From positions 2,560,001 to 2,624,000 of the forward strand of contig CM000207.1 in the NCBI GenBank assembly GCA_000002445.1: a DNA stretch of 64,000 nt. Reading direction: 5' to 3'. This DNA is from Trypanosoma brucei. Its lineage: Eukaryota. Position numbers and translations under genes: made by a program. The notes under the pieces were generated by a model, which had not been told where the DNA came from, did no database searches, and was given only the letters and a program-made list of their open reading frames with translations. Numbering within the stretch: position 1 is the first letter of the stretch; the number at the start of each line of letters is the position of its first letter. Shown here in pieces: positions 22,194 to 47,000 of the stretch.

Positions 22194-22209
22194 TGATATA
22201 TTTTAACAC
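22194..22209 (+). promoter_or_regulatory. VSG 3'UTR 16-mer
   Basis: tgatatattttaacac. Confidence 0.85.
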
Positions 22210-22400: not shown

Positions 22401-23054
22401 ACTGTTTTTTTTATTTTTTTATTTTTTTATTTAATTGTTTTTTGTTTTTTCTTTTTTTCACTTTTTTTTACAATACGTTGCTAATTTTTTAATTTTTTAA
22501 AAGTGATGCGTACGTCGTTTATCTCCATTTATATGAAATCAATTGAAAATAGCGTTATTTGTTATTTTCTAACAAGTCAATATTTTGTTTTTTGCATTTG
22601 TTTCAGGAAGATTCAAAAAACCTAACATTGTAAAATGTACCATAAAAAACGAAAGTGAAATAAAACGCATTATGCTTCTGAGTTTGATCTTATTACAAAT
22701 TTTGGGTATTCATTGTACATTTTTTAATTACATCACAAACTTGTTGAAAAATAAAATTTAAGCTGCCATATCTATCGGTTACTAAACGTTTCTGTGGTTT
22801 TCAAACACCTTCGTCACAACTTGCATATATGGCTTCCATAAAACTGTGATGATTTAAGTCTACTGAGAAACTGTATAGAAGAATCACCGGTAAATCTATG
22901 ATCTAAGCAGCGCTCAGTAGCTGTTCGTAACATTAAAGATAACAATTAATCTGTTTCCGATTGTACACAAAAAGGTCAAGAACAGGCAAAACATGGTATC
23001 AGCGGCTGTAGTAGCTTTTTTTAACGCTTCCGACAGCCAGATCAGTGAACACTA

Positions 23055-24431: not shown

Positions 24432-24514
24432 AGAGTGTTGCACAGTCTTATAAAATTTATGAGCATTTACTATTTTTAGAAAAATTTCAAAAATTGCTAA
24501 ATCTTGCTATAATT

Positions 24515-24530
24515 TGATATATTTTAACTC
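24515..24530 (+). promoter_or_regulatory. VSG 3'UTR 16-mer variant
   Basis: tgatatattttaactc. Confidence 0.75.
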
Positions 24531-25650: not shown

Positions 25651-27062
25651 ATGCTTAATAAAGGTCGCTACCTCCTTATCTATCTTTTGGCCGCTGTGTC
25701 GTTGGCCAACTCCGCAAACGCAGCAGCAGGAGACGCCATAAAGAAGCAATACTGGACGAGCTTCTGCGATGTCGCAGTTGAAGCTGAGACAATACCGTCT
25801 CAAGCGATAACCAGCCTAGAGGCGGCGGCAACGGAGGGCCTAAACAAGTTCAAATTCCTACTAAAGGCGCAAATATACGCCGAAGGAAACTTGACAAGGC
25901 CGACGGCTCCCGAAGAAAGAATGCTATGGACGTTTGGCGCGCATGAAACAGAAAAGGCGTTCAATTACTATACCAGCGCTGCTCCAGGCCAGATAATAAC
26001 GGCGGTTAGGGATGCAGGACGACTGCAAGGAGCAATAGGTGAATGGATAAACCTGATGGCAGAAGGTTCAGACGGCACAGACGGATGTCTCAGCAACAAC
26101 GACGGTGGTGGCAACCCAATAAGCGGGAGAAACGCGCTGACTGGAGACATGTAAAAATGTAAACTGAAATGGGAACCGGTACACAAAGGACAGGTACAAG
26201 GTACTTTGCTTGGACCAACAGGCCTTACGGGTAGTTTCTCAACGGGCGTAGCCCACGGAAGCTTAGTCAACGGAAACAAAAAATGCGGCATAAATTCGCC
26301 AAACACAGGCTTCCTGTTAAACGACGCGGATACAAGCGGCAGCGGCAACGGCGCAAATGTAGCGGGCCACACTCCAAAGATGGCTGCTGGACTACTAACC
26401 ATAGACAACACAGGCCTAATAATCGAGGTGTTAGCTGACACAGAAACTAAGCAGGCAACACACCCTTACCTGCATTACGCAGTAAAAGCCAAAACGAACG
26501 TTCAGCAGATGTTCAACTCCGATATGCCGCAAACTTTAGAGACAGCAAAGACATCTGAGCAACTAAAGCGGGCAGCAAGAAGGCAACTACTAGGCAAAAA
26601 AGACAGTGAAACTTCCGAAGACAACCAGATACCCGACAAAATCAAAAGTGTATTCACGACCAACGACAAATACCTAGCGATCCTACACAAAAACATAGAC
26701 GCCATGCCTACACCCAAAGAGCTGACAGATGATAAGCAGGAAACCACCCTAGGCGAAATCAACGACGTGGACCTCCTAATTCGTCTGTATTTTTACTATG
26801 TGGATGCCAACAAGAGAAAACTGCAAAACACATTAGACGAGCTACGAAATGTAAATAAAAAGCAAGAACCAAAATCAGCAGAAGACAAGGAAAAAGAGTG
26901 CAATACCAAAGGCAATGATAAGCAAGAAGAGTGTGAAAAACTAGAGAGTCAAGGGTGTATTTTTAACAAGGAGGGCAAGAAGTGGAAAAAGTGCACATTG
27001 AGCGAGGAAGGCAAAAAAGGAAGGAGCTAAACAACAATCAGAAAAAGAAGGAGGGAAAGATG
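25651..27062 (+). pseudogene. VSG with a frameshift near 26160 and a 3' end truncated by the ingi fragment
   Basis: Signal MLNKGRYLLIYLLAAVSLANSANAAAGDAIKK... ORFs 25651..26154 and 26206..27030. The C-terminal domain ...ECNTKGNDKQEECEKLESQGCIFNKEGKKWKKCTLSEEGKKG... ends abruptly at ingi-derived sequence, with no GPI signal or 16-mer. Confidence 0.75.
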
Positions 27063-28134
27063 AGAATTTTAATTTTAATTTTCTTCGTGCCTTCGTGGGA
27101 GTTTCCCCCCACTGGCGCGGCCATCAGCCATCACCGTAGAGCCCTGAGATGCTATCGGTCTGGCGACTGTGGCAGAGTCTCCCTTTTTTTATTCATCCTA
27201 ATACACCCTCTATAATTTTTGTTGTAGCTCCGCAGTTGAACGGAATACAGCAGATGGGGCGAAAAGCCTCCCACTCCGGACTCTCCAAAAGATGTCAATT
27301 AGCAATCCTTTTGTTTTGATTTTTGTTATTCGTTTATTATTCTCTCCCCCTCTTTCTGTTCCTGTTGCTTGTTGACTGCATACCCCCTCTGTCTCTGAGG
27401 GTGTATGGACTATTCCTGCGTCCGGTGCTTTTCCTGCTAGCTCCACACTCGGCAATAAGGGGGGAAGTTGCAGAAAGGAAAGTGGGTTGTATAACTGTTA
27501 CCTTAGGTGAGGACTTCACCTGCAGCCGGCTCCGTTCAACCGCAATGAGAAACTGCGCCAGCCTTTTAGAGAAACATACATCCTGCACACACACACACAC
27601 ACACACCTTCCACCGCAAACCTGACACGTAACTCCTTCAAACTGGGACAGCTCATCAAGTGCAGCGACGTTTCTTCGAAGTCGCCGCGTTGGATGGTAAC
27701 AGCGCGCTCTACCTTCATACCGTGCATCTTCTTTTGATGTAGGGTGAGGCCAGTTTTGCTAGCACACTGCCTTCCGCATGTCGGGCACACCAACATGGAT
27801 GTGTTTGTATGCGGGGAATCAGTGGCACACAATTTTGTGCTTTTGCTGCATTTAAGCTCGACTCCCTCACCTTTGTGGAAAGCCTTACAGTGTCGGATGA
27901 GGGAGTCCCTGCAACTGAGCACTTTTTGACACACACCACACTGCACCTCGCCTTTCCCCGGGACGTCAACATTTCCCCCACGGGCACGCTTACGAGGGAA
28001 TTGCAACACCACTACGGTACCGTCCTCCGTCACTATGCTCTTATGTTTGAATTTCTTGTGTAGTGACAGGGAAGAACGTGTACCGAAGCTCGCCTCGCAC
28101 AGGTCACATTGAAACGGCAGCTTCCGTGTATCCT
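27063..28134 (-). mobile_element. ingi 3' fragment (about 1.07 kb; zinc-finger region to poly(A)-like tail)
   Basis: It is the reverse complement of ingi from ...aggatacacggaagctgccgtttcaatgtgacctg... to the 3' end. A T-rich tail (aattttaattttaatttt) sits at the low-coordinate end. The minus-strand ORF 27566..28189 reads ...RKLPFQCDLCEASFGTRSSLSLHKKFKH... Confidence 0.88.
27586..27608. repeat. (CA/GT)n microsatellite expansion inside the ingi fragment
   Basis: The fragment has cacacacacacacacacac where the full copies have gtgagtgtgtgc. Confidence 0.8.
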
Positions 28135-31100
28135 CCCTGGTGATGCTGGTCACATCAACGTGGTGCCAGGATCCAGTACCCCGTATCATCGGGTGAAGCC
28201 AAGAGCCAGCAGCGTTCCTTTCATGGGGAACACTGCTGTGCTCTGGCTACGGCATCATACAGCACAGGGATCAGCAGCGTCTTGCTGGGACACCGTTTTT
28301 CATTTGTCGGTCCCTGGGCACGTGGCTAGCGTGCCATCAGCAGTATCATCCGCACTAAGATGCTGCTGTCCGGTGATGTGGAAGAGAATCCCGGCCCGTC
28401 GTTGCGCGGGATGCAGTGGAACTGCGCCGGGCTATCTCAAGGAAAGAGATTAGCACTCCACAAAACCCTTGTTGATGAGCGGATCGCCTTTTGTCTGTTG
28501 AGCGAGACAAGGATGACGCCTGGAGAGGCGGCTTTCTTTAGCGTTGCTGGCTACCAACATCACGGAATAGCTCGTAACTGCAAAGGAGGTGGTGTATCAA
28601 TACTAATGAGGGAGGACCTACCAGTCGAGACCGGTATGGCCGTTGTTGGTCGCATTGAACGAGTGCATGCAACAATTCACCCTGCACGTGGAACGGCGCT
28701 GACTGTCACGTCGGCATACATCCCACCAAAACACACCTTCACGGCAACTGACCTAGATACGCTTCTGACAACTGACGGTGCCCAGCTCATCGGTGCAGAC
28801 GCTAACGCACACGCGTTGGCATGGGATCGCGCGAGCCCACCAAATACCAAGGGTGAAACCCTCACACAGTGGTGCATTGACAACCAGTTTCTGGTATGTA
28901 ACACTGGTGAGTGCACCAGGTACACGCGCCACCACGGGGAGTCCACCCCTGATGTGACACTGTCAAGGAATTTCACAGTGTACACGTGGACATCGCTGTA
29001 TTCTCCCGATAGCGATCACCATAACATATTTTTCGACGTTATCGTTGGAGACGACACAGATGCACTGAGTTGCCCGCGGCTTCGAAAGCCCATGTACGCA
29101 TGGCTAAAAGCTAACTGGAGGAATTTCCGTCTCAAGGTTGACGAGCTCTGCAGGAAAATTGGTAGAGAGAAGAATGTCAACACTCTGGAACAGAAATTGA
29201 GCTCCGCCATCCGCACTGCGACGAATGTCTCCGTCCCCCGTGGCTGCAGAGCAACGCCACCACATTGGACACCTGCGCTCGCGAAAATCGATGAAGAGAT
29301 CGCTGGATGCGCACCCTCCCACCGAAGGGAAAAGTTGGTAGCCACGCGTAAGCAGATCCTGGACCGTACCACAAAGAAGAGATGGAGCACGCTATGCTCC
29401 AGACTTGCGGTGTCAGACTGCTGCAGTTGGCACATTGTCAAGAAGGTATATGCGCCACGACCACTAACCACACTGGCTGTACTTGTTGATAACGCGGCCA
29501 TCACGGACTACCATCAAGCTGAGAGGTTCAGTAAACTGTACTCGTCCCGTGCAAGAAGGCACCCCGACTCACACCCACCGGCACCAATAAAGACGATAGC
29601 GAGTGAGTTCAGCCCCATCACGATGGCTGAACTATGGAGATCGATCAAACTGCTTCCGACCGGATCCGCAGCAGGACCTGATTGCTTATACAACGAGGCA
29701 ATACAACATCTCGGTAGAACAGCGCTGAATGTTGTTCTGAGGCTATTCAATGAGAGCCTACGAACGGGAGTCGTGCCGCGTGCATGGAAGACTGGTGTTA
29801 TCATCCCCATCCTGAAGGCCGGAAAAAAGGCGGAGGACCTCGATTCTTACAGGACTGTGACGCTCACGAGCTGTCTCTGCAAAGTCATGGAACGCATAAT
29901 TGCCGCGAGGCTTAGAGACACTGTTGAGTCCCAGCTGACGCCGCAGCAATCAGGCTTTCGCCCCGGATGCTCAACGCTCGAACAACTCCTGCACGTCCGC
30001 GCTGCCCTCTGCCGCCCTACGCACCAATATCGTACGGGTGCTGTATTCGTTGACTACGAGAAGGCATTCGATACAGTAGACCACGACAAAATTGCGAGGG
30101 GAATGCACAGAATGAAGGTATCACCCCACATTGTGAAGTGGTGCGTATCATTTCTGAGTAACCGAACTGGCAGAGTGAGATTCAAGGAGAAGCTTTCCAG
30201 AAGCAGAACATTTGAGCGAGGAGTGCCACAAGGAACTGTCCTTGGCCCAATCATGTTCATTATTGTCATGAACTCGTTGAGCCAACGCCTTGCAGAAGTG
30301 CCGTTACTGCAGCACGGATTCTTTGCAGACGACCTGACGCTACTTGCGAGGCACACAGAGAGGGATGTCATCAACCACGCACTACAATGCGGCCTCAACG
30401 TGGTGTTACAGTGGTCAAAAGAGTACTTCATGTCTGTCAACGTAGCGAAAACGAAGTGCACACTCTTCGGGTGTATAGAGCGCCACCCCCTTACATTGCA
30501 ACTGGACGGCGAAAGAATAGGAGCTGACAGGATACCGAAGCTTCTAGGAGTAACATTCCAGTGTCAGCAGGGGATGGCAACACATGCGGCCGAAACGAGA
30601 CGCAAGATGGACTTCCGACTACTGCAGATAGTGTCCATCTCAGCTTCTACATGGGGGCCAAGACGACAAGTGCTGAGAGCTTTTTATCTAGCACTCGTAC
30701 AGGCACACACCATGTATGGCATTAAGGTATGGTACTGGGACGCTTCGGAACGAAGTCGTGACCTCCTTGCATCAGCACAACACAAAGCCAGTCGCATCAT
30801 AGCCGGCATACCGCATGGGACGCGCAAAGAGGACTCTCTGCTGGAAGCAAACCTCCTGCCACTCAAGACGGCCACTCTTGTGCACAGCATGAAATTCATG
30901 CTGATGTGTGAGTCACGAGGCGGATGCTTGCGGCGCAGTGCTGAAGAAGCATACCACAGCAAACACCCAGTCAGAGCCCAACATTCCCGCATCATGCGGT
31001 CCTATCCACACCTCCGCATTGAGCCACGCGAGCACCCACTAGAGACACCGACGCTCCGCCACAGCTGCCGACCGCTATTTCACACGCAGATAAAGCCTGT

Positions 31101-33388
31101 GTGCGCTGATGACCCTGACGATGTCAAAAGGGAGGCTTCCGAAAAGTGGATTGAACGGCATTTTTCACGGAGGGGGAAGGAGCTACCGCGGCGAGAGCAC
31201 TACGAATTGTGGACTGATGGATCCGTGTCCCTCGGTGAGAAGTCCGGAGCAGCTGCCCTGCTCTATAGAAACAATACGCTTATTTGTGCACCTAAAACCG
31301 GAGCAGGGGAACTCTCATGCAGTTACAGAGCGGAATGCGTAGCATTAGAGATAGAACTGCAACGGCTGCTGAAATGGCTTCCGGCATACAGAAGCACACC
31401 TAGCAGGTTGTCCATCTTCTCTGACTCGCTGTCAATGTTAACAGCACTGCGGACAGGCCCCCTAGCCGTAACGGACCCAATTCTAAGACGACTATGGAGG
31501 CTTCTGCTTCAAGTTCAGAGAAGGAAGATACGTATCCGACTTCAATTTGTGTTTGGCCATTGTGGCGTGAAACGGAATGAAGTTTGTGATGAGATGGCCA
31601 AAAAGGCCGCTGATTTACCACAGTTGCGAGACACATGGATCCCCGACATCATTGCTTATGCGAAGCGAGTGCTTAAGTCGGAAGAAGTCCATGAGAACAC
31701 TCATAGGTTTGGTATCACGGGCAACCACTTTCCAACAAAGCATAAAGAAGAACTGACGAGGGAAGAAGAAACGGCACTGGCACGCTTTCGGGTTGGGTCT
31801 TCAAGGCACTATGGATGGATGTTGCGAAAGATTAACCCGAGTGTGCCTCCACAGTGCCGATGGTGTAACCCGCAACATGCAGCGATAGGACCAACAATAC
31901 AAACAGCCCCAACTGTTGCGACACGCACTCTTCAAAGAACCTCCGAACCGACCAAATGTACGGAATGTGATGCCACATACCAATGCCGCTCGAGTACTGT
32001 AACGCACATGGTAAACAAACATGGCTTTGTGCGAGCTGATGCCCTCCGGAGGATCAAATACGGCGATGCAACACCTGCAGTGGATATCCCCCCGGAGCCC
32101 CCTCCAGTGGTGGCGATCGTTCCTCTACCATCGAGCACACGAGTCCCGATGAGACCGCAGGTACTTCATTGTACCATCTGTGCCTCCAAATTCGCAGTGC
32201 CAGGCCGACTATTACACCACCTTAGAACAATACATGGTATAGGCAGCGGTAGTTGCCGCGTGAAAAGGGGGCGAGAGAACGAGGACTCAGTGCAAGGAGA
32301 TGGTAGAGCCCCAGCAGCGCCAGTCTCTCAGGATACACGGAAGCTGCCGTTTCAATGTGACCTGTGCGAGGCGAGCTTCGGTACACGCTCTTCCCTGTCA
32401 CTACACAAGAAATTCAAACATAAGAGCATAGTGACGGAGGACGGTACCGTAGTGGTGGTGCAATTCCCTCGTAAGCGTGCCCGTGAGGGAAACGTTGACG
32501 CCACTGGGAAAGGAGAGGTGCAGTGTGGTGTGTGTCAAAAAGTGCTCAGTTGCAGGGACTCCCTCATCCGACATTGTAAGGCTTTTCACAAAGGTGAGGG
32601 AGTCGAGCTTAAATGCAGCAAAAGCACAAAATTTTGTGCCACTGATTCCCCGCATACAAACACATCCATGTTGGTGTGCCCGACATGCGGAAGGCAGTGT
32701 GCTAGCAAAACTGGCCTCACCCTACATCAAAATAAGATGCACGGTATGAAGGTAGAGCGCGCTGTTACCAGCCAACGCGGCGACTGCGAAGAAACGTCGC
32801 TGCACTTGATGAGCTGCCCCGGTTTGAAGGAGTTACGTGTCAGGTTTGCGGTAGAAGGTGAGTGTGTGCAGGATGTATGTTTCTCTAAAAGGCTGGCGCA
32901 GTTTCTCATTGCGGTTGAACGGAACCTGCCGCAGGTGAAGTCCTCACCTAAGGTAACAGTCATACAACCCACTCTCCCTTCTGCAACTTCCCCCCTTATT
33001 GCCGAGTGTGGAGCTAGCAGGAAAAGCACCGGACGCAGGAATAGTCCAGACACCCTCAGAGACAGAGAGGGTATGCAGTCAACAAGCAACAGGAACAGAA
33101 AGAGGGGGAGAGAATAATAAACGAATAACAAAAATCAAAACAAAAGGATTGCTAATTGACATCTTTTGGAGAGTCCGGAGTGGGAGGCTTCTCGCCCCAT
33201 CTGCTGTATTCCGTTCAACTGCGGAGCTACAACAAAAATTATAGAGGGTGTATTAGGCCGAAAAAAAAAGGGAGACTCTGCCACAGTCGCCAGACCGATA
33301 GCATCTCAGGGCTCTACGGTGATGGCTGATGGCCGCGCCAGTGGGGGGAAACTCTCACGAAGGCACGAAGAAAATTCAAGAAAAAAAT
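28135..33388 (+). mobile_element. ingi, full length (about 5.25 kb)
   Basis: The 5' end ccctggtgatgctggtcacatcaacgtggtgccagg... is the RIME/ingi 5' terminus. There is a single long ORF. The 3' end is ...cacgaaggcacgaagaaaattcaagaaaaaaa. No TSD is detectable. Confidence 0.9.
28360..33117 (+). CDS. ingi polyprotein ORF, uninterrupted 1585 aa: 2A-like leader, AP-endonuclease, reverse transcriptase, RNase H, four C2H2 zinc fingers
   Basis: MLLSGDVEENPGP (2A-like D-x-E-x-NPGP). Endonuclease-like WNCAGL...LSETRM. RT motifs FRPGCSTLEQLL, FVDYEKAFDTVDHD and FADDLTLLA. RNase H motif WTDGSVSLGEKSGAAA. Fingers HCTICASKF...HHLRTIH, FQCDLCEASF...HKKFKH, VQCGVCQKVL...RHCKAFH and CPTCGRQC...LHQNKMH. Confidence 0.9.
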   Translation: MLLSGDVEENPGPSLRGMQWNCAGLSQGKRLALHKTLVDERIAFCLLSETRMTPGEAAFFSVAGYQHHGIARNCKGGGVSILMREDLPVETGMAVVGRIERVHATIHPARGTALTVTSAYIPPKHTFTATDLDTLLTTDGAQLIGADANAHALAWDRASPPNTKGETLTQWCIDNQFLVCNTGECTRYTRHHGESTPDVTLSRNFTVYTWTSLYSPDSDHHNIFFDVIVGDDTDALSCPRLRKPMYAWLKANWRNFRLKVDELCRKIGREKNVNTLEQKLSSAIRTATNVSVPRGCRATPPHWTPALAKIDEEIAGCAPSHRREKLVATRKQILDRTTKKRWSTLCSRLAVSDCCSWHIVKKVYAPRPLTTLAVLVDNAAITDYHQAERFSKLYSSRARRHPDSHPPAPIKTIASEFSPITMAELWRSIKLLPTGSAAGPDCLYNEAIQHLGRTALNVVLRLFNESLRTGVVPRAWKTGVIIPILKAGKKAEDLDSYRTVTLTSCLCKVMERIIAARLRDTVESQLTPQQSGFRPGCSTLEQLLHVRAALCRPTHQYRTGAVFVDYEKAFDTVDHDKIARGMHRMKVSPHIVKWCVSFLSNRTGRVRFKEKLSRSRTFERGVPQGTVLGPIMFIIVMNSLSQRLAEVPLLQHGFFADDLTLLARHTERDVINHALQCGLNVVLQWSKEYFMSVNVAKTKCTLFGCIERHPLTLQLDGERIGADRIPKLLGVTFQCQQGMATHAAETRRKMDFRLLQIVSISASTWGPRRQVLRAFYLALVQAHTMYGIKVWYWDASERSRDLLASAQHKASRIIAGIPHGTRKEDSLLEANLLPLKTATLVHSMKFMLMCESRGGCLRRSAEEAYHSKHPVRAQHSRIMRSYPHLRIEPREHPLETPTLRHSCRPLFHTQIKPVCADDPDDVKREASEKWIERHFSRRGKELPRREHYELWTDGSVSLGEKSGAAALLYRNNTLICAPKTGAGELSCSYRAECVALEIELQRLLKWLPAYRSTPSRLSIFSDSLSMLTALRTGPLAVTDPILRRLWRLLLQVQRRKIRIRLQFVFGHCGVKRNEVCDEMAKKAADLPQLRDTWIPDIIAYAKRVLKSEEVHENTHRFGITGNHFPTKHKEELTREEETALARFRVGSSRHYGWMLRKINPSVPPQCRWCNPQHAAIGPTIQTAPTVATRTLQRTSEPTKCTECDATYQCRSSTVTHMVNKHGFVRADALRRIKYGDATPAVDIPPEPPPVVAIVPLPSSTRVPMRPQVLHCTICASKFAVPGRLLHHLRTIHGIGSGSCRVKRGRENEDSVQGDGRAPAAPVSQDTRKLPFQCDLCEASFGTRSSLSLHKKFKHKSIVTEDGTVVVVQFPRKRAREGNVDATGKGEVQCGVCQKVLSCRDSLIRHCKAFHKGEGVELKCSKSTKFCATDSPHTNTSMLVCPTCGRQCASKTGLTLHQNKMHGMKVERAVTSQRGDCEETSLHLMSCPGLKELRVRFAVEGECVQDVCFSKRLAQFLIAVERNLPQVKSSPKVTVIQPTLPSATSPLIAECGASRKSTGRRNSPDTLRDREGMQSTSNRNRKRGRE

Positions 33389-34399
33389 TTAGCTGTTGTT
33401 GGTAGTGCCATAACTGTCGGCTCTGCGGTCTGATAATGCTGATTTGCTGCTGAGATTAGACCGCTGATCTGCACTCCTAGAGCTGTCGCCTCCGCTGTTT
33501 TCGCTGGTATTTCGTCTAGTATTTTAGCTGCTTCTTCTAGTTTTGAGGCCCATGGTTTATTTACCCCCACATCTCTCTGGTTGCCGCGTAATATTTCGTG
33601 TACTTTATGCATAAGTTGCTGGTCGCCCCGCTATTTAATGTGGCAGCTTCGGCTCCTAGTAAATGTTCTACTGTCTTTCCCTCCTTTGCTGTTTGCACGC
33701 GGGCTTCTAGGCTTGCTATGACTAACATGATCACTGTCCCTGTGTGTTTGCTGCTTTCGCCTCTGTGGCGCCAGCCTTTTACTTTTGTTTCGGCTGCTAG
33801 CGGCGCGCTTCCCCAACCTACAGAAGTTCCTGTATTTTTGTATTTGTCGCTGTTTCGACCAGCAGAAAGCCAGAAGTGCCAAAGAATGTCGTTCCAAACT
33901 GACATGCTTGCATTTTCCGCGGACTCCGAGGTCCAGGCAGTTGCTTGCTAGAGTGTTTTGGTCGTCTCGGCTTTGAAGTCAGTTGCTCCTTCGCCCTACA
34001 GCGCCTCTGAAATCTTTTCCTTTCGGCCTTGCTTAACCCTGTCGATATTTCTTGTTTGAGCCTGGTGTAGGTGTTGCCAAGTGGTTGCAAGCCGTTTAAC
34101 GTGTCATTTAAATTTTTTTCAGCAGTTATTCTTGCCCAGTTTTCGATTAGTCTCGGATTTTTTTGTAGCGAGGCCTTTCCGTTTACGGGTTTGTTTAGTT
34201 TTGTTTCTGCTCAACCCATTTGTTCCACTTTGTTACCCAGTTTTTTTAGGTTTTCCTCTTTGTGTTTTGTTTTCCCATTTACTGTTTGCCCCTCAGCCTT
34301 CGAATAAGCTTTGTCAGTCCTGGCTGCTGGTTGACATATTCATCTGGTTTAGATTCTCGATGTCAGCGGTGAAGTCGACGACTGCGGTGGGCTGCTCCC

Positions 34400-37300
34400 C
34401 GCCTGCTCCCTGAATGTTGACGAAAGTGCAGTGCAGCCCGAAGTCTGCCGCATCCTTCTCTTGCAGAGTGACTTCTCTGCGGCGTAAAGAAAGCAGCGCC
34501 GCCGTAATGGTCGTTGCTAAAAAGCTTCGTGCATTGTCGTTGCTATTTGGTAGTTGAACCGGGTTCTGCCGCTTATGTTGTGAAGGTTGCTTGTGGTCTC
34601 TGCTGTCACTCACTCGGTATAGGTTTTTAAAATCCGAAAAATTGGAAGAAATATGGCTTCCATAATTCGTATATTGCGTCGGCAAAAAACATTTGGTCTG
34701 GTGGGAGAGATAGCACTTTATTCAACAATTCACCTTTTTCTTCTTTTTATATTTAAAATATCTGTTTTTTTTAACGGTCTCCGCGAGTGACTCTGAAAGT
34801 GTCTGCTAAAGTTATGGTGCATGTGCCGCCTGCGCTGTTCGGTCATCTATGGATTGCATTGGTGCACAAAACTCGCTTTCAAAATCCATGCAGAGTACAT
34901 GTTGATCCCTTATCTGCTCTGCTTCCCTTGGGAACTTATTTGTGAACCTGGCTCTGTTGTGCCTTGCGTATGGTTGAAAACTTCGCCTATTCACTACGTG
35001 TCATGGTATAGTGGATTGTAGGCTAGTTGTTAAAACTGCTTTGTTTTTTCCTTCTTTGGTTCTTGTTGTCCGATATGGTCTGTTTTTTGTGGCTGTTTGT
35101 GGTTTTCTATCTGGTTGCATCTCCTCTTCTTGCAGGTTGAGCTGGTATTTAAATTCCCCTCATGTGCTTGTACCATTATTGGTTAGCATTATCAGCGTCA
35201 TTAATTTCGGCGTTTGCTATTCTACCGCTGAAAAGCCGTTGTATCCTCGGAGTTTTTCAGAGTGATAAGAGCCAACACTGTTTAAGCTGGCGACAGCGTA
35301 CAGAGTTCTCTTTTGCTCTGATCATTGCTTTCTCTTCCTCTTGACATTTTTGTGCTAGTAATTTGCTTCAAGAGAACGAAAGGTGGCGTGCGAGGTTGAT
35401 TTTGGATATCATTTGTTGGTCCTCAACGGTTGAAAAAAAGGAGCACGTACCACTGCTGTATTTTATGCTATGACGATATAAAATGCAAGCAGTTACACTA
35501 CATTGTTTGCAGTTTATAATTCCGATCCATATTGACCTATATTTGTATCGAAAAAAGATTTAAATTTATTGTGTTTTCTCTACTCTATCAGCTTCAAAAA
35601 TGCGTGACAGCTTTTGACTCAAAATAAAAAATAATGCTTTTTGTTTCTCAAGAACTTGAGTGGCCTTTTGGTTTTTTCCTGAGTTGTACGCGACAGTATT
35701 TAAGCTCCCTTTTAAGTTTAAGTAATTTAGTCCACAAAGCTGCATTTGCTTTATTGATTTGCACCATTAGTTTTGCGTCAGAAATAACGCTTAAATTAAT
35801 TAATCGCTCTCTGAAAATTTTTAGTGTCTGTCCAGTATACCCACATGGAACTGTTGTTGTTTTATGACAAATTTTTTTACTTCATAAACCTCTTACAACG
35901 GCACATAAATACTACACATTAACAATTTTCGCTTTTTTATTTTTATTTTGATGTCTTTAAAAATTTTAAAATAACATTTTCCTTAAAATTTTTCTTGATA
36001 ACATCATATTGTTACCCACGAATATCTTCGACTGTTAGTATATCCAATGACAAGAAAAACTTCAAAATAACATCAAACTTACCTAATCCCTTCTGCCATA
36101 TTCTTTTGTTTCTGAACATTTTTATTTACAGCTGGATGTTTGGATCCACTATAAGATCAAAAAATACAGTTTACACCATCTTTGGCTTTTTCTATCCTTT
36201 TTCAGTTAAATATGGAGCAAAATCTCCACCTGCGTAATTTGCTTCTTTTATGTGCTGTTGCGCATGTCTTAGCTTCATGCTGTACTTACTTTCCTCTTTT
36301 TTGTTTTCTGTTGCTTTTGCGTGTAGTGTACCGCCTTTATTTTGTTTGCGAGGTCTTCCACTTTGTCATTTCTCTGGAAACCGCAATGCAAAAACACAAA
36401 CTGAAACGACATGGATACTCTCAGTTTCATGAAGTGTATGATCAGATCCTAAATGCGTCGTAGCATGGTATCTGTCACTTCTGTAGGATCCGTTTTAAGT
36501 GCCATTAATAAAGATAACATGTCTGTAAATATTGCCACTTTCGTTTTTATGCTCTCGTTGATCTTTATTACTGTTTTGAGTTTCATAAGTCCTGCATCCA
36601 TGGCTACACACTCGGCTCTGTAGCTTCATGCTAACCTGACTGCTCCTTTTTTCACTTTTACCGCATTACCTTGTCAAGGATGTATTATCGCGGCGGCACC
36701 AGAGGGTTCGTCCAGTATCACTGACCCATCTGTCCACACTTGGTAATTGTAGTCTTTGAGTTTACGTAACTTTTGAATTGTGTGTCTTTTCTCGCTGTCG
36801 GAGGCATCAGAATGGAGACCATCTGGTGCTGTAGTGTTGAGGTATGGTCTCCTCGCCAGTTGCAATGCGCTTGCCGTGTGTGGTTCCTCCGGTTCGTCTA
36901 CTTCCTCATACAAGTATGACACATTCTCCAGGAGCGTGCATATCATATGACTAGGTGGGAAGATTCTTTCCACTGTGTCGGATGATGCCTTACTATTCGC
37001 CTTCCTTGTTCAATAGTATTATATTGCTCGTCTATGAGTAATATAATCTATCTGGTGAAGGAGGGCCTCCTTTATGACAACATGCCTGCTCGCTTACGTT
37101 GGAACACCCGCAATAACATGTGCCTCCTGCGCTTGCACTCGTTCAAGCTGCTTTTTGTCTGATTGAAAGGCATTGAACCACCATGCCGCAATACCATAGC
37201 ATAATTTTTCCTGGATTAAGGCTAAAAAAAAATGCTCTAACACTTTCTTTACTCGCTCCCTATTCAGGTGATGCAACAGCCCTTAGTTTCATTAATCTCA

Positions 37301-39797
37301 TAGTTGCTGCTGTTTGCAGGGTGTGAGCATTTTTTCTTACTCAGTCCTTTGTTTGGCTGCATTGTCACCCCAAGGAGTCTGTGGTTTCTTGTCTAATTTA
37401 ATCTGCGCTCTCCTAGAAATAAGTGTAGTGAGTCGCGGTCTCTCACCACAAAGAACATGTATTCCGCTTTTTCTGAAGACACATCCATACAGTCCTCTCC
37501 TAACCAGCTCACTATACAATACATCCCTGTTTGTACCGTCTGCCGAATAGCTTCCTGGTCAGTTTTAGAGCGTACTATCGTGAGGCCGTTTGCGAAGAAG
37601 CAGTATTTAAGGACTGTCATGGCATTTAGTTTCGCACTGAGAGAGTCCATTGCGATAATGAATAGCAACAGCCCCAACACGGAACATTGTGGAACACCAC
37701 ACGTGAGTTATATTTTCTTTGAGAGGGATGTTGTTTATTCGTACTACTTTAGTCCGTCCCTCAAGGAAATTTGCAACCCATGCAATAAAGTGCATGCCTA
37801 TCTCATATCTTTTTAGTGCATCCATTATGCACCCGTGATACACAGAGTCAAATGCCCTCGCATAATCTGTGAATACCGCTGCAGCTGTTTCTCCTGCTAT
37901 TCTATGTGTCACGAAGTCTGTGAGTGCCATCAGGGCCTCTAACTTAGACCTCCCTGGACGAAAAGCGGATTTCTGTAGTTGCGCCTTACATTCTACCGTG
38001 TCTCGTATGCGTCTCGCTACAATCCTTTCTATTAGCTTACAGAGAGTGCTATTGAGCGTGATGAGCCGGAATGATGACATACACTTGGCAGGTTTGTTGT
38101 TCTTGAGTAGTGGGACGATAACTCCATGCTTCCATTTCTCCGACACCCGGTTTCTCTGTAGGCTACAGTTGAATTGCTTGAGGACACGTTTCTTGCTACA
38201 GCGTCCTAATTGCTTCAACCATTCACAATGTATATTGTCCTTACCGGAGCAAGTGCCTGAAGAGAGTTCCTTCAGTTCTGTCTCAAGTTTTGCAATCGTT
38301 ATTAGTGCGAATTCTCCACTCACTCGTTAACGTGTACTCATGTGAAGAGCATCTGGTGCTTTTGTCGACCTCTCTCGATACATCTGTGCTAGTTTATTAA
38401 CTTGCTGTCTACATGTTAAAATGTGGTCGTTTACTACCAGAACCGGAGATGTCAGTGGATTCGATGCGTCAATGGACTTAACTAAATTCCAACTTTTTGT
38501 ATCGGTCACTGACATATTTGACACATTTTTCTTCCACCGTTGTAGGGATTTTTCAGCGAGAACCTTCCTTCTCTTGTATATAAGGGAACCTCTCTGTGCT
38601 TTTAACTTGTATATTCTTTTATTGTTGTGTCAATACGGTCAGTTCTCGTGTCCAAAACGGTGGCGATTCTTCCTTACCTTTCTGTGTTTTTTCTTTGTTG
38701 CTGTGCGAATGCCTTTAGCCACAGCCTCATTCATAGGATCCACATTCTTTCTTGATTTCCTTAATTTTTACACCATTGTTACACTATACACTTTTCTAAA
38801 CTTCCGTCAATTTGCTTTGTTGCAAACATAAAACACCTTTAGTGGCTTTGTAATGGCGATAATTTCTACACCAATCCCAGTACACACCTCGAACGGTTAT
38901 CCGGTAGTGGTGACTATCTGGACTGAGTTTTATCTCCCATCTTGTGACTTCGCAGTCTCTGTACATCGTAACGTCGGGAGACGACCTGGTTTCCATGTGA
39001 GCCGTTCTTCTCGTTGGTGTTCCATCATTTGCAATTTTGATATCATTTTGTATACATCAGTCTACAATGCATTCTCCTGCTGTATTATTGGGGCGAAGCG
39101 GGTCCCATAAGTTATGATGTGCGTTGGTATCGAATCCTATTATTAGTGATACAGTTCAACTTTGAAGGCTTTCAAGCGTGGAGTTAGTGACATTTTTGTT
39201 CTGTGGGAAGTAAGCTGATTTGACAGTTAAAGTTGTATCAGATGAGGACATCAGTGTTGCCGAGACTCTTTCCGGCTGTCTTTCCGTCCTACGGACATTG
39301 GATGACTCCCACGCCATCTTTGATTATAATGGAAACATTGCAAAAATGTGGAGAGCGTGCCATTTCCATGTGTTTGTATCCACTAATTTTCAATGCGCAG
39401 TATTCTTTTGCTGCCAAGTGAGTCTCCTGCAATAAACAAAAAAATACCATATCCTCGTGGAGCTTCTTCTCAAGGCCATTCGCTTCACCTTGGAGCAACC
39501 CCCAGAATTCCACTGGAATGCACAAATCATGGGACAGGGATCCTGTTCCATATCTCCGTTAAGAAGTAGTAGAAGCCGATGTATCTCAACTAAGGCACGC
39601 CTGCACATGCAAAGGAGCAATCTAATATATTTATTCACTCCAGAGTGCCGATGCTGCTACTTTCTCCTTTTTTGGTCGCTGAAAGCCTGTTACCAGCCCC
39701 AATCCTGTTGAACTATGTATAATGCGTGCACTTGGCTTCATCCTGGACGAAGTAATAGACCCTGGAACTACGATGAGGTGGCCGACGTCACCAGCGA
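34400..39797 (-). mobile_element. Degenerate ingi-related element (DIRE); 3' boundary uncertain
   Basis: On the minus strand the 5' end at about 39797, cgctggtgacgtcggccacctcatcgtagttccagggtc..., is homologous to the ingi/RIME 5' terminus. Fragmented ORFs follow in ingi order: a degenerate 2A-like LLLNGDMEQDPCP (39390..39638); endonuclease-like CLLQETHL...YKHMEMARSPHF; RT (37393..38323: FRPGRSKLEALMAL, VFTDYARAFDSVYHG, FFANGLTIV); and RNase H (36674..36973: WTDGSVILDEPSGAAAIIHP, then SYRAECVAM near 36610). The stops and frameshifts are numerous. Confidence 0.7.
36610..39638 (-). pseudogene. DIRE EN/RT/RNase H ORF remnants
   Basis: Minus ORFs 39390..39638, 39289..39525, 38796..38996, 37607..38323, 37393..37680, 37094..37276 and 36674..36973 each align to successive parts of the ingi ORF. 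Confidence 0.7.
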
Positions 39798-39858: not shown

Positions 39859-41350
39859 TCAAAACAGAAAGCTCATAAAATATGCAGCAATTAAAGAAAA
39901 CTTCTTATTTACAGGAAAATTGGGATCTTTGCAAGTGCTACTTTTCGATTTACAACTGATGTCCTTTTCGCAAGTTCCTTTGTCTGTTCGATGTTTTGAA
40001 CATTTCTCTTCGTTTTTGTCGCCTCCTTGAGCTTTCGCCTGTGCACCTTGTTGTTCTTTTGCCTTTTCGGATATAATAAGCATTTCTTTCTTTATAAGCT
40101 GCACTTTCGTCCCATTTTCATGGTGGTTTGCATGGCGAGTTATTCATGTTGGAAACCTTGCACGCTTGTTCTTTAGACACTCGTTGCTTTGCGGAAGGAC
40201 TTGTCGTTGTTCTGGCCCCTTTAATTTAGTGTAGAACCAAAAAACCGTGTTTTCTAGGGCTGCCGACCGGGAAAGTAACGTCTTCGTCGCTTCTTTTGTA
40301 GGTAGGTGCGCCGCGTTTCTGTTTATGTGGTCAATAGCTCTAGCTCTGGTGTTATTTGGCTAAGCCACGGCGTGTCCGTGTCACTTGTTACTTGTCCTGG
40401 AAGTTTGCCGTTCCATTTGTAGCATCCTTCCGTTTCTCTGTTGGCCGTCACACGAGTTTTTGAATGCCCCAGGTAAGAATTAGTGTCATCTCTTGTGACG
40501 TATTTCACGACGTCTTTTAATATTTCTGTTGGTGAACTTGCCAGTGCATTGGTGTCGCCGTCCGCCATGCCCTTTTTAAACACTTTTTGTATTAGACAGT
40601 CTGTCGGTTCAGCGTTATCCGCCCAGTCCACCGTGGCTCTGACACCTTTTCAGCACGTGTGCTGAGTTTCGCCTGATTTTGAGCCGCACACACGGGCTAG
40701 TGCTGCTGCTAGCCCTTTTGTTTTGGCATCGTTTATTGTCTGTTGCGCTGCCCTCAGTCGACTGTGCGTGAGCTGTGATTTGCTTAGTATTGGTACTAGC
40801 ACCGTTAGAAATTTCCTTTTATGCGCCGCAGTCAACTTGGCAGTTGCAGCCTTCAAGTCGTTGTGATTATTTGCTTTTATCTTATCCAGTGGTTTTGCGC
40901 CTTCTGGCCAATTGGTGTAGAGGCTGTGCTACGGTTTTGTCTCCTTCAAAGTCTCTGGTGATTGATTCTGACAACTTTGCTTGTCGTCTTTGTGTTTAAA
41001 AACCTGCAAAACTGATGCGTTCGCAGTACTGAGGTTTAAAGCGTGCAGTTTGTTGAATGCTTCTGACTCAGTTGTCGTCGCAGTAGACTGTTTATAACTA
41101 GTTGTTGCGGCTGCCGCTAGCTCGCAAAGCCGTCGGGCCGCTTCCCTGTTGCCTACCGCTGGCACGGTTTCTGTTACCTGTCTTGATTCAAAAATAAACG
41201 CTGTTGTCAATAATACTGCTTGCTTTTCTCACATCATCCCTTGCTTTCGACTTGTGCTGGTGAAGGTGTGCAGTTTGGGATATCATCGTGTTATTGCAGC
41301 GGAATGCACCACATGTTCATTTGGTAAAAAACTGCAGTTCCTTTGACTTC
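39859..41350 (-). pseudogene. VSG pseudogene, fragmented; N-terminal boundary uncertain
   Basis: The C-terminal ORF 39859..40104 reads ...CSKHRTDKGTCEKDISCKSKSSTCKDPNFPVNKKFSLIAAYFMSFLF*. Upstream minus ORFs (40323..40631, 40650..40856, 40929..41210) are Ala/Thr/Lys-rich and VSG-like. No intact signal peptide was found. Confidence 0.5.
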
Positions 41351-44038: not shown

Positions 44039-44050
44039 TTTGTTTGAAGC
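44039..44050. repeat. 12-bp target-site duplication, left copy (TTTGTTTGAAGC)
   Basis: It is identical to 49309-49320, immediately after the ingi poly(A). Confidence 0.85.
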
Positions 44051-47000
44051 CCCTGGCGATGCCGGCCACCTCAACGTGGTGCCATGGTCCAGTACCCCGT
44101 ATCATCGGGGGAAGCCAAGAGCCAGCAACGTTCCTCTCATGGGGAACACTGCTGTGCTCCGGCTACGGCATCATACAGCACAGGGATCAGCAGCGTCTTG
44201 CTGGGACACCGTTTTTCATTTGTCGGTCCCTGGGCACGTGCCAGCGTGCCATCAGCAGTATCATCCGCACTAAGATGCTGCTGTCCGGTGATGTGGAAGA
44301 GAATCCCGGCCCGTCGTTGCGCGGGATGCAGTGGAACTGCGCCGGGCTATCTCAAGGAAAGAGATTAGCACTCCACAAAACCCTTGTTGATGAGCGGATC
44401 GCCTTTTGTCTGTTGAGCGAGACAAGGATGACGCCTGGAGAGGCGGCTTGCTTTAGCGTTGCTGGCTACCAACATCACGGAATAGCTCGTAACTGCAAAG
44501 GAGGTGGTGTATCAATACTAGTGAGGGAGGACCTACCAGTCGAGACCGGTATGGCCGTTATTGGTCGCATTGAACAAGTGCATGCAACAATTCACCTTGC
44601 ACGTGGAACGGCGCTGACTGTCACGTCGGCATACATCCCACCAAAACACACCTTCACGGCAACTGACCTAGATACGCTTCTGACGACTGACGGTGCCCAG
44701 CTCATCGGTGCAGACGCTAACGCACACGCGTTGGCATGGGATCGCGCGAGCCCACCAAATACCAAGGGTGAAACCCTCACACAGTGGTGCATTGACAACC
44801 AGTTTCTGGTATGTAACACTGGTGGGTGCACCAGGTACGCGCGCCACCACGGGGAGTCCACCCCTGATGTGACGCTGTCAAGGAATTGCACAGTGTACAC
44901 GTGGACATCGCTGTATTCTCCCGATAGCGATCACCATAACATATTTTTCGACGTTATCGTTGGAGACGACACAGATGCACTGAGTTGCACGCGGCCTCGA
45001 ATGCCCATGTACGCATGGCTAAAAGCTAACTGGAGGAATTTCCGTCTCAAGGTTGACGAGCTCTGCAGGAAAATTGGTAGAGAGAAGAACGTCAACACCC
45101 TGGAACAGAAATTGAGCTCCGCCATCCGCATTGCGACGAAGGTCTCCGTCCCCCGTGGCTGCAGAGCAACGCCACCACATTGGACACCTGAGCTCGCGAA
45201 ACTCGATGAAGAGATCGCTGGATGCGGACCCTCCCACCGAAGGGAAAAGTTGGTAGCCACGCGTAAGCAGATCCTGGACCGTACCACAAAGAAGAGATGG
45301 AGCACGCTATGCTCCAGACTTGCGGTGTCAGACCGCTGCAGTTGGCACATGGTCAAGAAGGTATATGCGCCACGACCACTAACAACACCGGCTGTACTTG
45401 TAGATAACGCGGCCATCACGGACTACCGTCAAGCTGAGAGGTTCAGTAAACTGTACTCGTCCCGTGCAAGAAGGCACCCCGACTCACACCCACCGGCACC
45501 AATAAAGACGATAGCGAGTGAGTTCAGTCCCATCACGATGGCTGAACTACGGAGATCGATCAAACTGCTACCGAGTGGATCCGCAGCCGGACCTGATTGC
45601 TTATACAACGAGGCACTGCAACATCTCGGCAGAACAGCGCTGAATGTTGTTCTGAGGCTATTCAATGAGAGCCTACGAACGGGAGTCGTGCCGCCTGCAT
45701 GGAAGACTGGTGTTATCATCCCCATCCTGAAGGCCGGAAAAAAGGCGGAGGACCTCGATTCTTACAGGACTGTGACGCTCACGAGCTGTCTCTGCAAAGT
45801 CATGGAACGCATAATTGCCGCGAGGCTTAGAGACACTGTTGAGTCCCAGCTGACGCCGCAGCAATCAGGCTTTCGCCCCGGATGCTCAACGCTCGAACAA
45901 CTCCTGCACGTCCGCGCTGCCCTCTGCCGTCCCACGCACCAATCTCGTACGGGTGCTGTATTCGTTGACTACGAGAAGGCATTTGATACAGTAGACCACG
46001 ACAAAATTGCGAGGGAAATGCACAGAATGAAGGTATCACCCTACATTGTGAAGTGGTGCGTATCATTTCTGAGTAACCGAACTGGCAGAGTGAGATTCAA
46101 GGAGAAGCTTTCCAGAAGCAGAACATTTGAGCGAGGAGTGCCACAAGGAACTGTCCTTGGCCCAATCATGTTCATTATTGTCATGAACTCGTTGAGCCAA
46201 CGCCTTGCAGAAGTGCCGTTACTGCAGCACGGATTCTTTGCAGACGACCTAACGCTACTTGCGAGGCACACAGAGAGGGATGTCATCAACCACACACTAC
46301 AATGCGGTCTAAACGTGGTGTTACAGTGGTCAAAAGAGTACTTCATGTCTGTCAACGTAGCGAAAACAAAGTGCACACTCTTCGGGTGTATAGAGCGCCA
46401 CCCCCTTACATTGCAACTGGACGGCGAAAGAATAGGAGCTGACAGGATACCGAAGCTTCTAGGAGTAACATTCCAGTGTCAGCAGGGGATGGCAACACAT
46501 GCGGCCGAAACGAGACGCAAGATGGACTTCCGACTACTGCAGATAGTGTCCATCTCAGCTTCTACATGGGGGCCAAGACGACAAGTACTGAGAGCTTTTT
46601 ATCTAGCACTCGTACAGGCACACACCATGTATGGCATTGAGGTATGGTACTGGGACGCTTCGGAACGGAGTCGCGACCTCCTCTCAGCAGCACAACACAA
46701 AGCCAGTCGCATCATAGCCGGCATACCGCATGGGACGCGCAAAGAGGACTCTCTGCTGGAAGCAAACCTCCTGCCACTCAAGACGACCACTCTTGTGCGC
46801 AGCATGAAATTCATGCTGATGTGTGAGTCACGAGGCGGATGTTTGCGGCGCAGTGCTGAAGAAGTATACCACAGCAAACACCCAGTCAGAGCCCAACATT
46901 CCCGCATCATGCGGTCCTACCCCCACCTCCGCATTGAGCCACGCGAGCACCCACTAGAGACATCGACGCTCCGCCACAGCTGCCGACCGATATTTCACAC

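What the first reader, a model, noticed from the sequence alone, without database searches (positions are those of the whole stretch)
27063..39797. Convergent strand-switch between two VSG arrays coincides with a three-element retroposon cluster (ingi fragment -, ingi +, DIRE -)
From 4.6 to 27 kb all VSG cassettes (70-bp repeat, then VSG, then 16-mer) are on the plus strand. From 64 kb down to about 39.8 kb all are on the minus strand. The orientation flips within about 12.7 kb that is almost entirely retroelement sequence: a minus ingi 3' fragment abutting a plus full ingi, then about 1 kb unassigned, then a minus DIRE. Retroelements at array inversion points suggest they mediated or mark an inversion or fusion. 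The 1 kb at 33390-34400 has only minus-strand ORF fragments that I cannot assign.
Basis: partly seen in the sequence, partly recalled or inferred. Interest (0 to 1): 0.65.

Follow-up and report, generated by a model that had tools for sequence, protein, structure and literature searches.

The report
Head-to-head ingi pair joins VSG arrays
Two Trypanosoma brucei surface-antigen (VSG) gene arrays meet tail to tail at a pair of ingi retrotransposon copies joined head to head between two truncated VSG genes, which looks like a scar of retrotransposition-mediated joining; the neighbouring DIRE element is an unrelated old insertion.

Summary
VSG cassettes are on the + strand up to 27,066 and on the - strand from 33,388 onward. 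The "unassigned 1 kb" is a - strand B-type VSG pseudogene (Pfam VSG_B E=1.7e-15 after frameshift stitching). The switch interval is therefore only 27,067-33,387, not 12.7 kb.

That interval holds only a 5'-truncated ingi (-, 1,068 bp) joined bluntly at 28,134|28,135 to the exact 5' end of a full-length ingi (+, 5,253 bp). Both A-rich tails point outward. Each tail abuts a VSG that has lost its 3' part. Neither ingi, nor the pair, has the 12-bp target-site duplication that the third ingi in the window shows perfectly.

The DIRE (34,761-39,796, -) is a canonical old insertion in the 3'UTR of the next - strand VSG and is not at the switch.

Best reading, at moderate confidence: two target-primed reverse transcriptions at two broken VSG sites were joined 5'-to-5', producing a deletion, inversion or fusion. 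This parallels LINE-1 "RT-end to RT-end" junctions.

No cross-strain test was possible. Retroelements at trypanosome strand switches are already known, so interest is moderate-low.

The parts
25651..27066 (+). A-type VSG pseudogene, last cassette of the + array. It is truncated at its 3' end: part of the C-terminal domain, the GPI signal, the 3'UTR and the 16-mer are missing.
   Evidence: Pfam Trypan_glycop hits on ORFs 25651-26154 and 26206-27030. Homology to other VSG C-terminal coding sequence stops at 27066. No 16-mer follows.
27067..28134 (-). 5'-truncated ingi: the 3'-terminal 1,068 bp with its own A-rich tail (27067-27076 on the + strand, read as AAAATTAAAA on the - strand).
   Evidence: 95.8% identical to 32330-33389 in reverse complement, 93.9% to ingi C and 96.5% to ingi A. 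The tail differs from the tails of B and C.
28134..28135 (.). Head-to-head (5'-to-5') junction: an internal ingi position is joined to the first base (CCCTGG...) of a full-length ingi. There is no microhomology and no filler.
   Evidence: Sequence tatcct|ccctgg. The 5' end is defined by ingi C, which is bounded by a target-site duplication, and by the T. b. equiperdum copy.
28135..33387 (+). Full-length ingi B, 5,253 bp including its A-rich tail. It carries endonuclease, reverse transcriptase, RNase H and zinc-finger domains. The ORF is broken by a stop and a frameshift in the first ~80 codons. No target-site duplication.
   Evidence: Pfam RVT_1, Exo_endo_phos_2, RNase_H and zf-C2H2. 97.2% identical to ingi C over 5.26 kb. 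Frame check. Flanks TCCGTGTATCCT and TTTAGCTGTTGT do not match.
32330..33387 (+). Right arm of the 1.07-kb inverted repeat formed with 27067-28134; the spacer is 4,195 bp.
33388..34533 (-). B-type VSG pseudogene: a complete N-terminal domain with frameshifts and stops. It is truncated at its 3' end, with no C-terminal domain and no 16-mer. This is the true last cassette of the - array.
   Evidence: Stitched translation hits Pfam VSG_B at E=1.7e-15 over profile 3-350 of 352. Partial hits. No 16-mer.
34761..39796 (-). DIRE, a degenerate ingi/L1Tc-related element. It is an old canonical insertion in the 3'UTR of the VSG at 39859-41210 and is not part of the switch.
   Evidence: tblastn colinear with ingi residues 1-1082 at 31-37% identity across three frames. 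5' signature CGCTGGTGACG... is 73% identical to ingi. A8 tail at 34765-34772. Upstream TTTTATAAAA|ATTATGAAATAT fits the ingi6 target motif. Vestigial duplication, 8 of 12.
39859..41210 (-). B-type VSG pseudogene with its complete C-terminus. The DIRE starts 62 nt after its stop codon.
   Evidence: Pfam VSG_B and Trypan_glycop_C on ORFs 40929-41210 and 39859-40104. Sequence.
44051..49308 (+). Internal control: ingi C, a canonical young insertion in the - array. It has an intact 1,657-aa ORF (44059-49032) and a perfect 12-bp target-site duplication, TTTGTTTGAAGC, at 44039-44050 and 49309-49320.

Best explanation
The convergent junction between the two VSG arrays is a rearrangement scar made during ingi retrotransposition.

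Two separate DNA ends each primed reverse transcription of an ingi RNA from its A-rich tail. One end lay in the C-terminal coding region of an A-type VSG (after 27066). The other lay just past the N-terminal domain of a B-type VSG (before 33388). One cDNA ran to the exact 5' end of the RNA (ingi B). The other had reached 1,068 nt.

The two cDNA ends were then joined 5'-to-5' without homology, either by a reverse-transcriptase template jump or by end joining. This ligated the two chromosomal ends and discarded the 3' parts of both VSGs.

Depending on where the two sites originally lay, the net result was a deletion across an existing convergence point, an inversion, or a fusion of two arrays. 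The DIRE is an older, ordinary insertion into the neighbouring VSG's 3'UTR.

Shown: the anatomy, namely the truncations, the outward tails, the blunt head-to-head junction and the missing target-site duplications. Inferred: the order and simultaneity of events and the joining mechanism.
For: 1. Both flanking VSGs end exactly at an ingi A-rich tail and lack their 3' portions and 16-mers.
2. Both tails point outward, and each copy has its own distinct tail: B has CAAGA7, the fragment has A4TTA4, and C has CTA11. That is expected of separate reverse-transcription events and not of a DNA duplication.
3. B is full length to the first base, and is joined to an internal ingi position with 0 bp of microhomology.
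4. There is no 12-bp target-site duplication for B, for the fragment or for the pair. Ingi C, 11 kb away, has a perfect one and a flank fitting the published ingi4 target motif at 5 of 7 upstream positions and 2 of 3 positions within the duplication.
5. The 12 nt beyond each tail has T at positions 2 and 7 in B, in the fragment and in C, as in the ingi4 pattern xTxTxxT. This is weak evidence.
6. The fragment is not a copy of B. They share only 1 exclusive variant in 900 columns, against 6 for the split A+fragment versus B+C. Private changes are similar, 10 versus 6.
7. The same architecture is documented experimentally for human LINE-1: two TPRT insertions with poly-A outward, a 0-bp junction, and translocations or inversions as the product (bioRxiv 10.1101/2024.12.14.628481; PMC7058536).
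8. From my own knowledge, T. brucei repairs ends mainly by microhomology-mediated joining. A 0-bp junction at an exact element 5' end therefore fits a reverse-transcriptase-driven join better than DNA repair.
Against: - This is a single locus. No empty site or orthologous locus from another strain could be retrieved.
- The predicted reciprocal junction is not in the window.
- Simultaneity of the two reverse transcriptions is not demonstrable.
- The upstream 22-nt endonuclease motif cannot be examined, because it would lie on the lost ends.
- A third of the window is retroelement, and retroelements are known to accumulate at strand switches.
- The one other ingi locus I could fetch (L001, T. 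b. equiperdum) also sits in a convergent VSG switch, but between non-coding flanks with an 8 of 12 duplication-like match. Passive accumulation therefore also occurs.
Confidence: 0.45

Rival explanations
1. Two sequential events. An older - strand ingi inserted normally into the C-terminal region of the + strand VSG. Later, ingi B initiated target-primed reverse transcription in the - strand VSG, and its full-length 5' end was captured by a break inside the older ingi. Everything in between was deleted, as in LINE-1 insertion-associated deletions. On this view the convergent orientation existed beforehand.
For: Same anatomy as the best explanation: outward tails, B full length, no target-site duplication for B. 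Insertion-associated deletions under 10 kb are the commonest LINE-1-mediated rearrangement. The fragment has slightly more private substitutions than B, 10 versus 6 per 900 nt.
Against: It needs a second, independent break inside the older ingi. The difference of 10 versus 6 is not significant. The older element's own 5' duplication copy is gone, so nothing positive supports it.
Confidence: 0.25
2. The retroelements are passengers. The convergence point is old, ingi and DIRE simply accumulate in such transcriptionally inert gaps, and later DNA-level deletions or gene conversion trimmed the VSGs and the - strand ingi.
For: Retroelements are known to concentrate in trypanosomatid strand-switch regions (PMC4748587 abstract; PMC1868937). 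The DIRE here is a plain insertion. L001 shows another convergent VSG switch holding an ingi between non-coding flanks. 33% of the window is retroelement.
Against: It requires three independent deletions to end exactly at an ingi tail, at the other ingi tail and at the first base of ingi B, all without microhomology.
Confidence: 0.17
3. Assembly artefact: a misjoin of two contigs within repeated ingi sequence, or a chimeric fold-back read.
For: Subtelomeric VSG arrays with 5-kb repeats that are 95-98% identical are hard to assemble. Inverted junctions are a classic long-read chimera signature (my own knowledge).
Against: The arms are only 95.8% identical and are separated by 4.2 kb, not a perfect zero-spacer palindrome. 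The join lies at a non-homologous point, an internal position against the element's 5' end. Each copy has private variants and its own tail.
Confidence: 0.08
4. DNA-level inverted duplication (fold-back or hairpin repair) that copied the 3' end of ingi B together with its flank.
For: An inverted repeat of 1.07 kb flanks the body of B.
Against: Homology stops exactly at the canonical ingi end, and the tails and flanks differ. The fragment shares only 1 exclusive variant with B and is nearer to ingi A (97.7%) than to B (97.0%).
Confidence: 0.05

Closest known systems
LINE-1 rearrangement junctions formed between two 'primary RT ends' (bioRxiv 10.1101/2024.12.14.628481), and L1-bridged deletions and inversions in cancer genomes (PMC7058536)
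   Same: Two independent reverse-transcribed insertions with poly-A tails facing outward against the two genomic breakpoints. They are joined 5'-to-5' with 0 bp of homology. The junction has no target-site duplication, and the flanks are not contiguous in the ancestor.
   Different: A different retrotransposon clade (ingi/L1Tc versus L1) and a different host, which lacks classical end joining. This is a fixed germline-equivalent event in a gene-family array. The reciprocal junction was not observed here, whereas the human cases were validated with it.
Twin priming (5'-inverted L1 insertions)
   Same: Both 3'-OH ends of a broken target prime reverse transcription, and the two cDNAs are joined in inverted orientation.
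   Different: In twin priming the second primer anneals internally on the same RNA, so the inverted part is the upstream segment and carries no tail. The insertion is also flanked by a target-site duplication. Here the inverted part carries its own A-rich tail, B is full length so a second RNA is needed, and no duplication exists.
Retroelement-rich strand-switch and centromeric domains of T. brucei core chromosomes (PMC1868937)
   Same: Two ingi plus a DIRE lie at a change of coding strand. The chromosome 1 centromeric strand switch holds two full-length ingi closely linked to a DIRE.
   Different: Those domains separate housekeeping gene clusters and always include a 2-30 kb AT-rich repeat array. 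No tandem array lies between 24.5 and 51 kb here. The flanks are silent VSG cassettes.
Canonical Tbingi/DIRE insertions (ingi4 and ingi6 target motifs, 12-bp duplication; PMC3820030)
   Same: Ingi C and the DIRE in this window behave canonically.
   Different: Ingi B and the - strand fragment lack the duplication and interrupt two different genes.

Membership tests
Tbingi (ingi4 subclade non-LTR retrotransposon): element B, 28135-33387 | About 5.25 kb long, 5' end CCCTGG..., A-rich 3' tail | tested here: met
   5,253 bp. Its 5' end is identical in register to ingi C and to the T. b. equiperdum copy. Tail is CAAGA7. The length of 5.25 kb is given in PMC3447711.
Tbingi (ingi4 subclade non-LTR retrotransposon): element B, 28135-33387 | Single ORF encoding endonuclease, reverse transcriptase, RNase H and zinc-finger domains (1,657 aa) | tested here: inconclusive
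   All domains are present, but the ORF is broken by a stop and a frameshift near its start. B is a defective copy. Ingi C has the intact 1,657-aa ORF.
Tbingi (ingi4 subclade non-LTR retrotransposon): element B, 28135-33387 | 12-bp target-site duplication | tested here: not met
   TCCGTGTATCCT versus TTTAGCTGTTGT. The fragment and the pair as a whole also have none. B belongs to the sequence family, but it is not a canonical insertion event.
DIRE (degenerate ingi/L1Tc-related element): 34761-39796 | Colinear but decayed ingi-like coding sequence, a 5' 76-79-nt signature and a poly(A) tail | tested here: met
   tblastn to ingi residues 1-1082 at 31-37% identity in three frames. The 5' 70 nt are 73% identical to ingi. 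A8 tail.
DIRE (degenerate ingi/L1Tc-related element): 34761-39796 | 12-bp duplication and ingi6 upstream motif TTTTxxxxxA|A | tested here: inconclusive
   The motif is matched exactly (TTTTATAAAA|A). The duplication is only 8 of 12 in AT-rich sequence.
VSG cassette: 33388-34533 (-) | VSG N-terminal domain | tested here: met
   Pfam VSG_B at 57.5 bits (cut-off 25), profile 3-350 of 352, on the stitched translation.
VSG cassette: 33388-34533 (-) | C-terminal domain, 3'UTR 16-mer and upstream 70-bp repeat | tested here: not met
   No Trypan_glycop_C hit, no 16-mer at up to 3 mismatches, and no 70-bp core nearby. It is a truncated pseudogene fragment.
T. brucei centromeric strand-switch domain | AT-rich tandem repeat array of several kb next to ingi/DIRE | tested here: not met
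   Tandem Repeats Finder reports no array between 24.5 and 51 kb.
Twin-priming insertion | Target-site duplication around the whole insertion, with the inverted segment derived from the RNA region upstream of the direct segment | tested here: not met
   No duplication. The inverted segment duplicates the 3' end and tail that are also present in B.
Retrotransposition-mediated rearrangement (RT-end to RT-end junction) | Tails outward at both breakpoints, a junction with little or no homology, and no duplication | tested here: met
Retrotransposition-mediated rearrangement (RT-end to RT-end junction) | Reciprocal junction or ancestral empty sites | not testable with these tools
   No T. brucei genome collection is searchable by DNA. 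Exact-protein look-ups found nothing. The best VSG homologue is 69% identical.

The most novel reading that the evidence does not exclude
Ingi target-primed reverse transcription can physically ligate two broken VSG-array ends. Retrotransposition itself, and not only homologous recombination between copies, would then reshape the silent VSG archive in an organism without classical end joining. As a by-product it creates a 1.07-kb inverted ingi repeat. Read-through from the + array would fold that repeat into a long hairpin RNA, a built-in source of ingi-directed siRNA.
Probability: 0.35. Interest if true: 0.55.

Novelty: new member of a known kind. Interest (0 to 1): 0.35.

Why it matters
About a quarter of the T. 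brucei genome is VSG archive, and how its arrays are cut, inverted and fused is poorly documented at base-pair level. A junction whose every breakpoint coincides with an ingi end would be direct sequence evidence that active retrotransposition truncates VSGs and rearranges arrays, rather than passively littering them. It would also show that the LINE-1 style "two RT ends joined" mechanism operates in a deeply divergent eukaryote. If the junction is instead only a passenger arrangement, it is one more example of the known enrichment of retroelements at trypanosome strand switches.

Tried and rejected
1. I first read the ~120 bp after the internal A-run of ingi B, ingi C and the fragment as a 3' transduction. 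I rejected this. With it, B and C are about 5.25-5.26 kb (5,253 and 5,258 bp), the published ingi length. An unrelated T. b. equiperdum ingi also carries it. It is the canonical 3' end, and ingi A at 1-4639 is the copy that lost it.
2. The reverse complement of that segment resembled a retroposon 5' signature to my eye. Local alignment against the ingi and DIRE 5' ends scores no better than shuffles: 16 against 13.8±2.3. Rfam finds nothing. A literature string search was uninformative.
3. Cross-strain comparison failed. Exact-protein look-ups for six window ORFs found nothing. The C-terminal ingi query gave no hits.
4. DNA-level inverted duplication is rejected on variant sharing and on the distinct tails.
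5. A centromere-type strand switch is rejected because there is no AT-rich array.
6. Single-site twin priming is rejected because there is no target-site duplication.
7. I tried to reconstruct the lost endonuclease motif from a paralogous VSG at 57.5 kb. It matched 4 of 7 positions, by my own hand comparison on the sequences, which is not informative.
8. I considered the orphan VSG C-terminal fragment at 11729-12190 as the reciprocal piece. It lies inside the + array and not at a divergent junction, so I dropped it.
Full report
**What the window is.**
Pfam scans identify A- and B-type trypanosome VSG domains on + strand ORFs between 9.3 and 27.0 kb, and on - strand ORFs between 39.9 and 62.6 kb. 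The conserved VSG 3'UTR 16-mer occurs 7 times on the + strand (7110-24515) and 5 times on the - strand (42268-63514), against 0.7 expected by chance. 70-bp-repeat cores follow the same strand split, and AT skew changes sign at about 33-34 kb. The closest database VSGs are from Trypanosoma brucei.

**Retroelements in the window.**
Self-comparison shows four ingi-derived pieces:
- ingi A, 1-4639 (+), cut at its 5' end by the window edge;
- a - strand fragment, 27067-28134;
- ingi B, 28135-33387 (+);
- ingi C, 44051-49308 (+).

B carries endonuclease, reverse transcriptase, RNase H and zinc-finger domains. A DIRE lies on the - strand at 34761-39796. It is colinear with ingi residues 1-1082 at 31-37% identity across three reading frames, its first 70 nt resemble the ingi 5' signature (73%), and it ends in an A8 run. 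Retroelements make up 33% of the window, so their presence near any landmark is not surprising in itself.

**The 'unassigned' kilobase.**
Two - strand ORFs at 34317-34685 and 33564-33905 hit Pfam VSG_B at profile positions 3-63 and 253-314. They are colinear and correctly spaced. Stitching the three - strand frames gives one hit of 57.5 bits (cut-off 25), E=1.7e-15, covering 3-350 of 352 profile positions. So 33388-34533 is a B-type VSG pseudogene on the - strand. It has a full N-terminal domain but no C-terminal domain and no 16-mer.

The - array therefore extends to 33388. The DIRE lies inside that array, 62 nt downstream of the stop codon of VSG 39859-41210. Its upstream flank, TTTTATAAAA|ATTATGAAATAT, fits exactly the ingi6-type target motif TTTTxxxxxA|A reported for some TbDIRE (PMC3820030). 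It also has an 8 of 12 vestigial duplication. The DIRE is an old, ordinary insertion and plays no part in the switch.

**Anatomy of the real switch (27067-33387).**
- Left edge. The A-type VSG at 25651-27066 matches other VSG C-terminal coding sequence up to ...GGGAAAGATGAGAA (27066). There a paralogue continues for another ~255 nt to its 16-mer. Here the next bases are instead TTTTAATTTT followed by the reverse complement of the canonical ingi 3' end.
- Right edge. Ingi B ends ...GAAGAAAATTCAAGAAAAAAA at 33387, and the - strand VSG sequence starts at 33388.
- Middle. The - fragment stops at an internal ingi position (equivalent to 32330 in B) and is joined directly to CCCTGG, the first bases of B. 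That 5' end is defined independently by ingi C and by a T. b. equiperdum copy. The junction, tatcct|ccctgg, has no microhomology and no filler.
- Overall the structure reads: VSG 5' part (+), tail, truncated ingi (-), full ingi (+), tail, VSG 5' part (-).

**Controls within the window.**
Ingi C has an intact 1,657-aa ORF, the length published for a functional ingi (PMC3447711). It also has a perfect 12-bp target-site duplication, TTTGTTTGAAGC (44039-44050 and 49309-49320), and an upstream flank that fits the ingi4 motif at 5 of 7 positions. B, the fragment and the pair as a unit have no duplication.

The three copies have different A-rich tails after the same canonical end. In 900 shared columns the fragment shares only one exclusive variant with B, against six for the split A+fragment versus B+C, and it is slightly closer to ingi A. 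The fragment is therefore an independent reverse-transcribed copy and not a DNA duplicate of B's end.

**A correction to my own first reading.**
I initially took the ~120 bp after the internal A-run as a 3' transduction shared by B, C and the fragment. With that segment B and C are about 5.25-5.26 kb long (5,253 and 5,258 bp), which is the canonical ingi length. The only other T. brucei-group ingi I could fetch (L001, T. b. equiperdum CM010675.1) has the same segment. It is simply the canonical 3' end. Ingi A is the exception: its last ~120 nt are replaced by a 70-bp repeat at 4631-4649.

**Mechanism.**
Every breakpoint coincides with an ingi terminus: two tails and one exact 5' end. The most economical account is that two DNA ends each primed reverse transcription of an ingi RNA, and that the two cDNAs were then joined 5'-to-5'.

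One cDNA was complete. The other had reached 1,068 nt when the completed reaction jumped onto it or was ligated to it. This links two chromosomal ends and loses whatever lay beyond them, here the 3' parts of two VSGs.

The same product has been demonstrated for human LINE-1, with two TPRT insertions, poly-A outward, a 0-bp junction, and translocations, inversions or deletions as outcomes. Whether the event here created the convergent orientation (inversion or fusion) or removed an existing convergence point (deletion between two facing RT ends) cannot be decided from this window. The predicted reciprocal junction is not present in it.

**Rivals.**
- A two-step history, in which an older - strand ingi was later hit by the 5' end of B with deletion of the intervening DNA, fits the same anatomy. 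I rate it about half as likely.
- Passive accumulation followed by unrelated deletions would need three deletions to end exactly on element termini.
- Misassembly is unlikely. The arms are 95.8% identical with a 4.2-kb spacer and private variants, but only reads can exclude it.

**Context from elsewhere.**
L001 also contains a convergent VSG switch. It has + strand 16-mers and 70-bp cores on the left, and - strand ones plus a - strand VSG on the right. A single + ingi sits in the middle between non-coding flanks, with an 8 of 12 duplication-like match.

Retroelements at trypanosomatid strand switches are well known (PMC4748587; PMC1868937: two ingi plus a DIRE at the chromosome 1 centromeric strand switch). 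What is specific here is the breakpoint-level evidence for an RT-mediated join. I found no description of that for ingi in the searchable literature.

**Verdict.**
The elements and their orientations are right, but the switch interval is half the stated size and the DIRE is not part of it.
The ingi pair is the junction and probably made it, while inversion, deletion and fusion remain unresolved.
- Novelty: a new member of a known kind.
- Interest: 0.35.

Noticed in passing
window 4600-4760: Ingi A lacks the canonical last ~120 nt and the A-rich tail. Its 3' end (...TATAGAGAGTGTGTTG) runs straight into a 70-bp repeat core (GAGTGTGTTGTGAGTGTGC at 4631-4649). This suggests recombination between the GT-rich ingi 3' region and a 70-bp repeat.
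   Followed up: partly
window 44039-49320: Ingi C has an uninterrupted 1,657-aa ORF (44059-49032) and a perfect 12-bp target-site duplication. It is a young, potentially autonomous copy, inserted in + orientation inside the - strand VSG array.
   Followed up: yes
L001 (T. b. equiperdum CM010675.1, record positions 2,162,844-2,185,747), locus positions 6.8-15.5 kb: This is a second convergent VSG-array switch. Facing 70-bp repeats lie at 6851 (+) and 15429 (-), with one full-length + ingi (8513-13771) centred between two ~1.65-kb non-VSG flanks. The flanking 12-mers match only 8 of 12, although the element is ~95% identical to the other copies.
   Followed up: partly
window 11729-12190: An orphan VSG C-terminal domain ORF with its own 16-mer (12165) lies directly after a complete VSG cassette (9286-10849). 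It is preceded by T-rich degenerate repeats at 11064-11417; a similar T tract lies at 22405-22469.
   Followed up: no
window 5574-6890, 20727-21716, 43181-43852: These long ORFs sit in cassette positions, each followed by a 16-mer, but have no Pfam VSG hit. They may be divergent VSG or VSG-related genes.
   Followed up: no
window 34749-34764 (- strand): Directly after the DIRE A8 tail the - strand reads CAGATATTTTAAATAT, which resembles a degenerate VSG 16-mer with a 2-nt deletion. This is consistent with the DIRE having inserted just upstream of that VSG's 16-mer.
   Followed up: partly
window 27587-27606 versus 32858-32868: The - strand ingi fragment carries an expanded (CA)n/(GT)n microsatellite at a position where ingi B has a short version. 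This produces the break between the two inverted-repeat segments reported.
   Followed up: no
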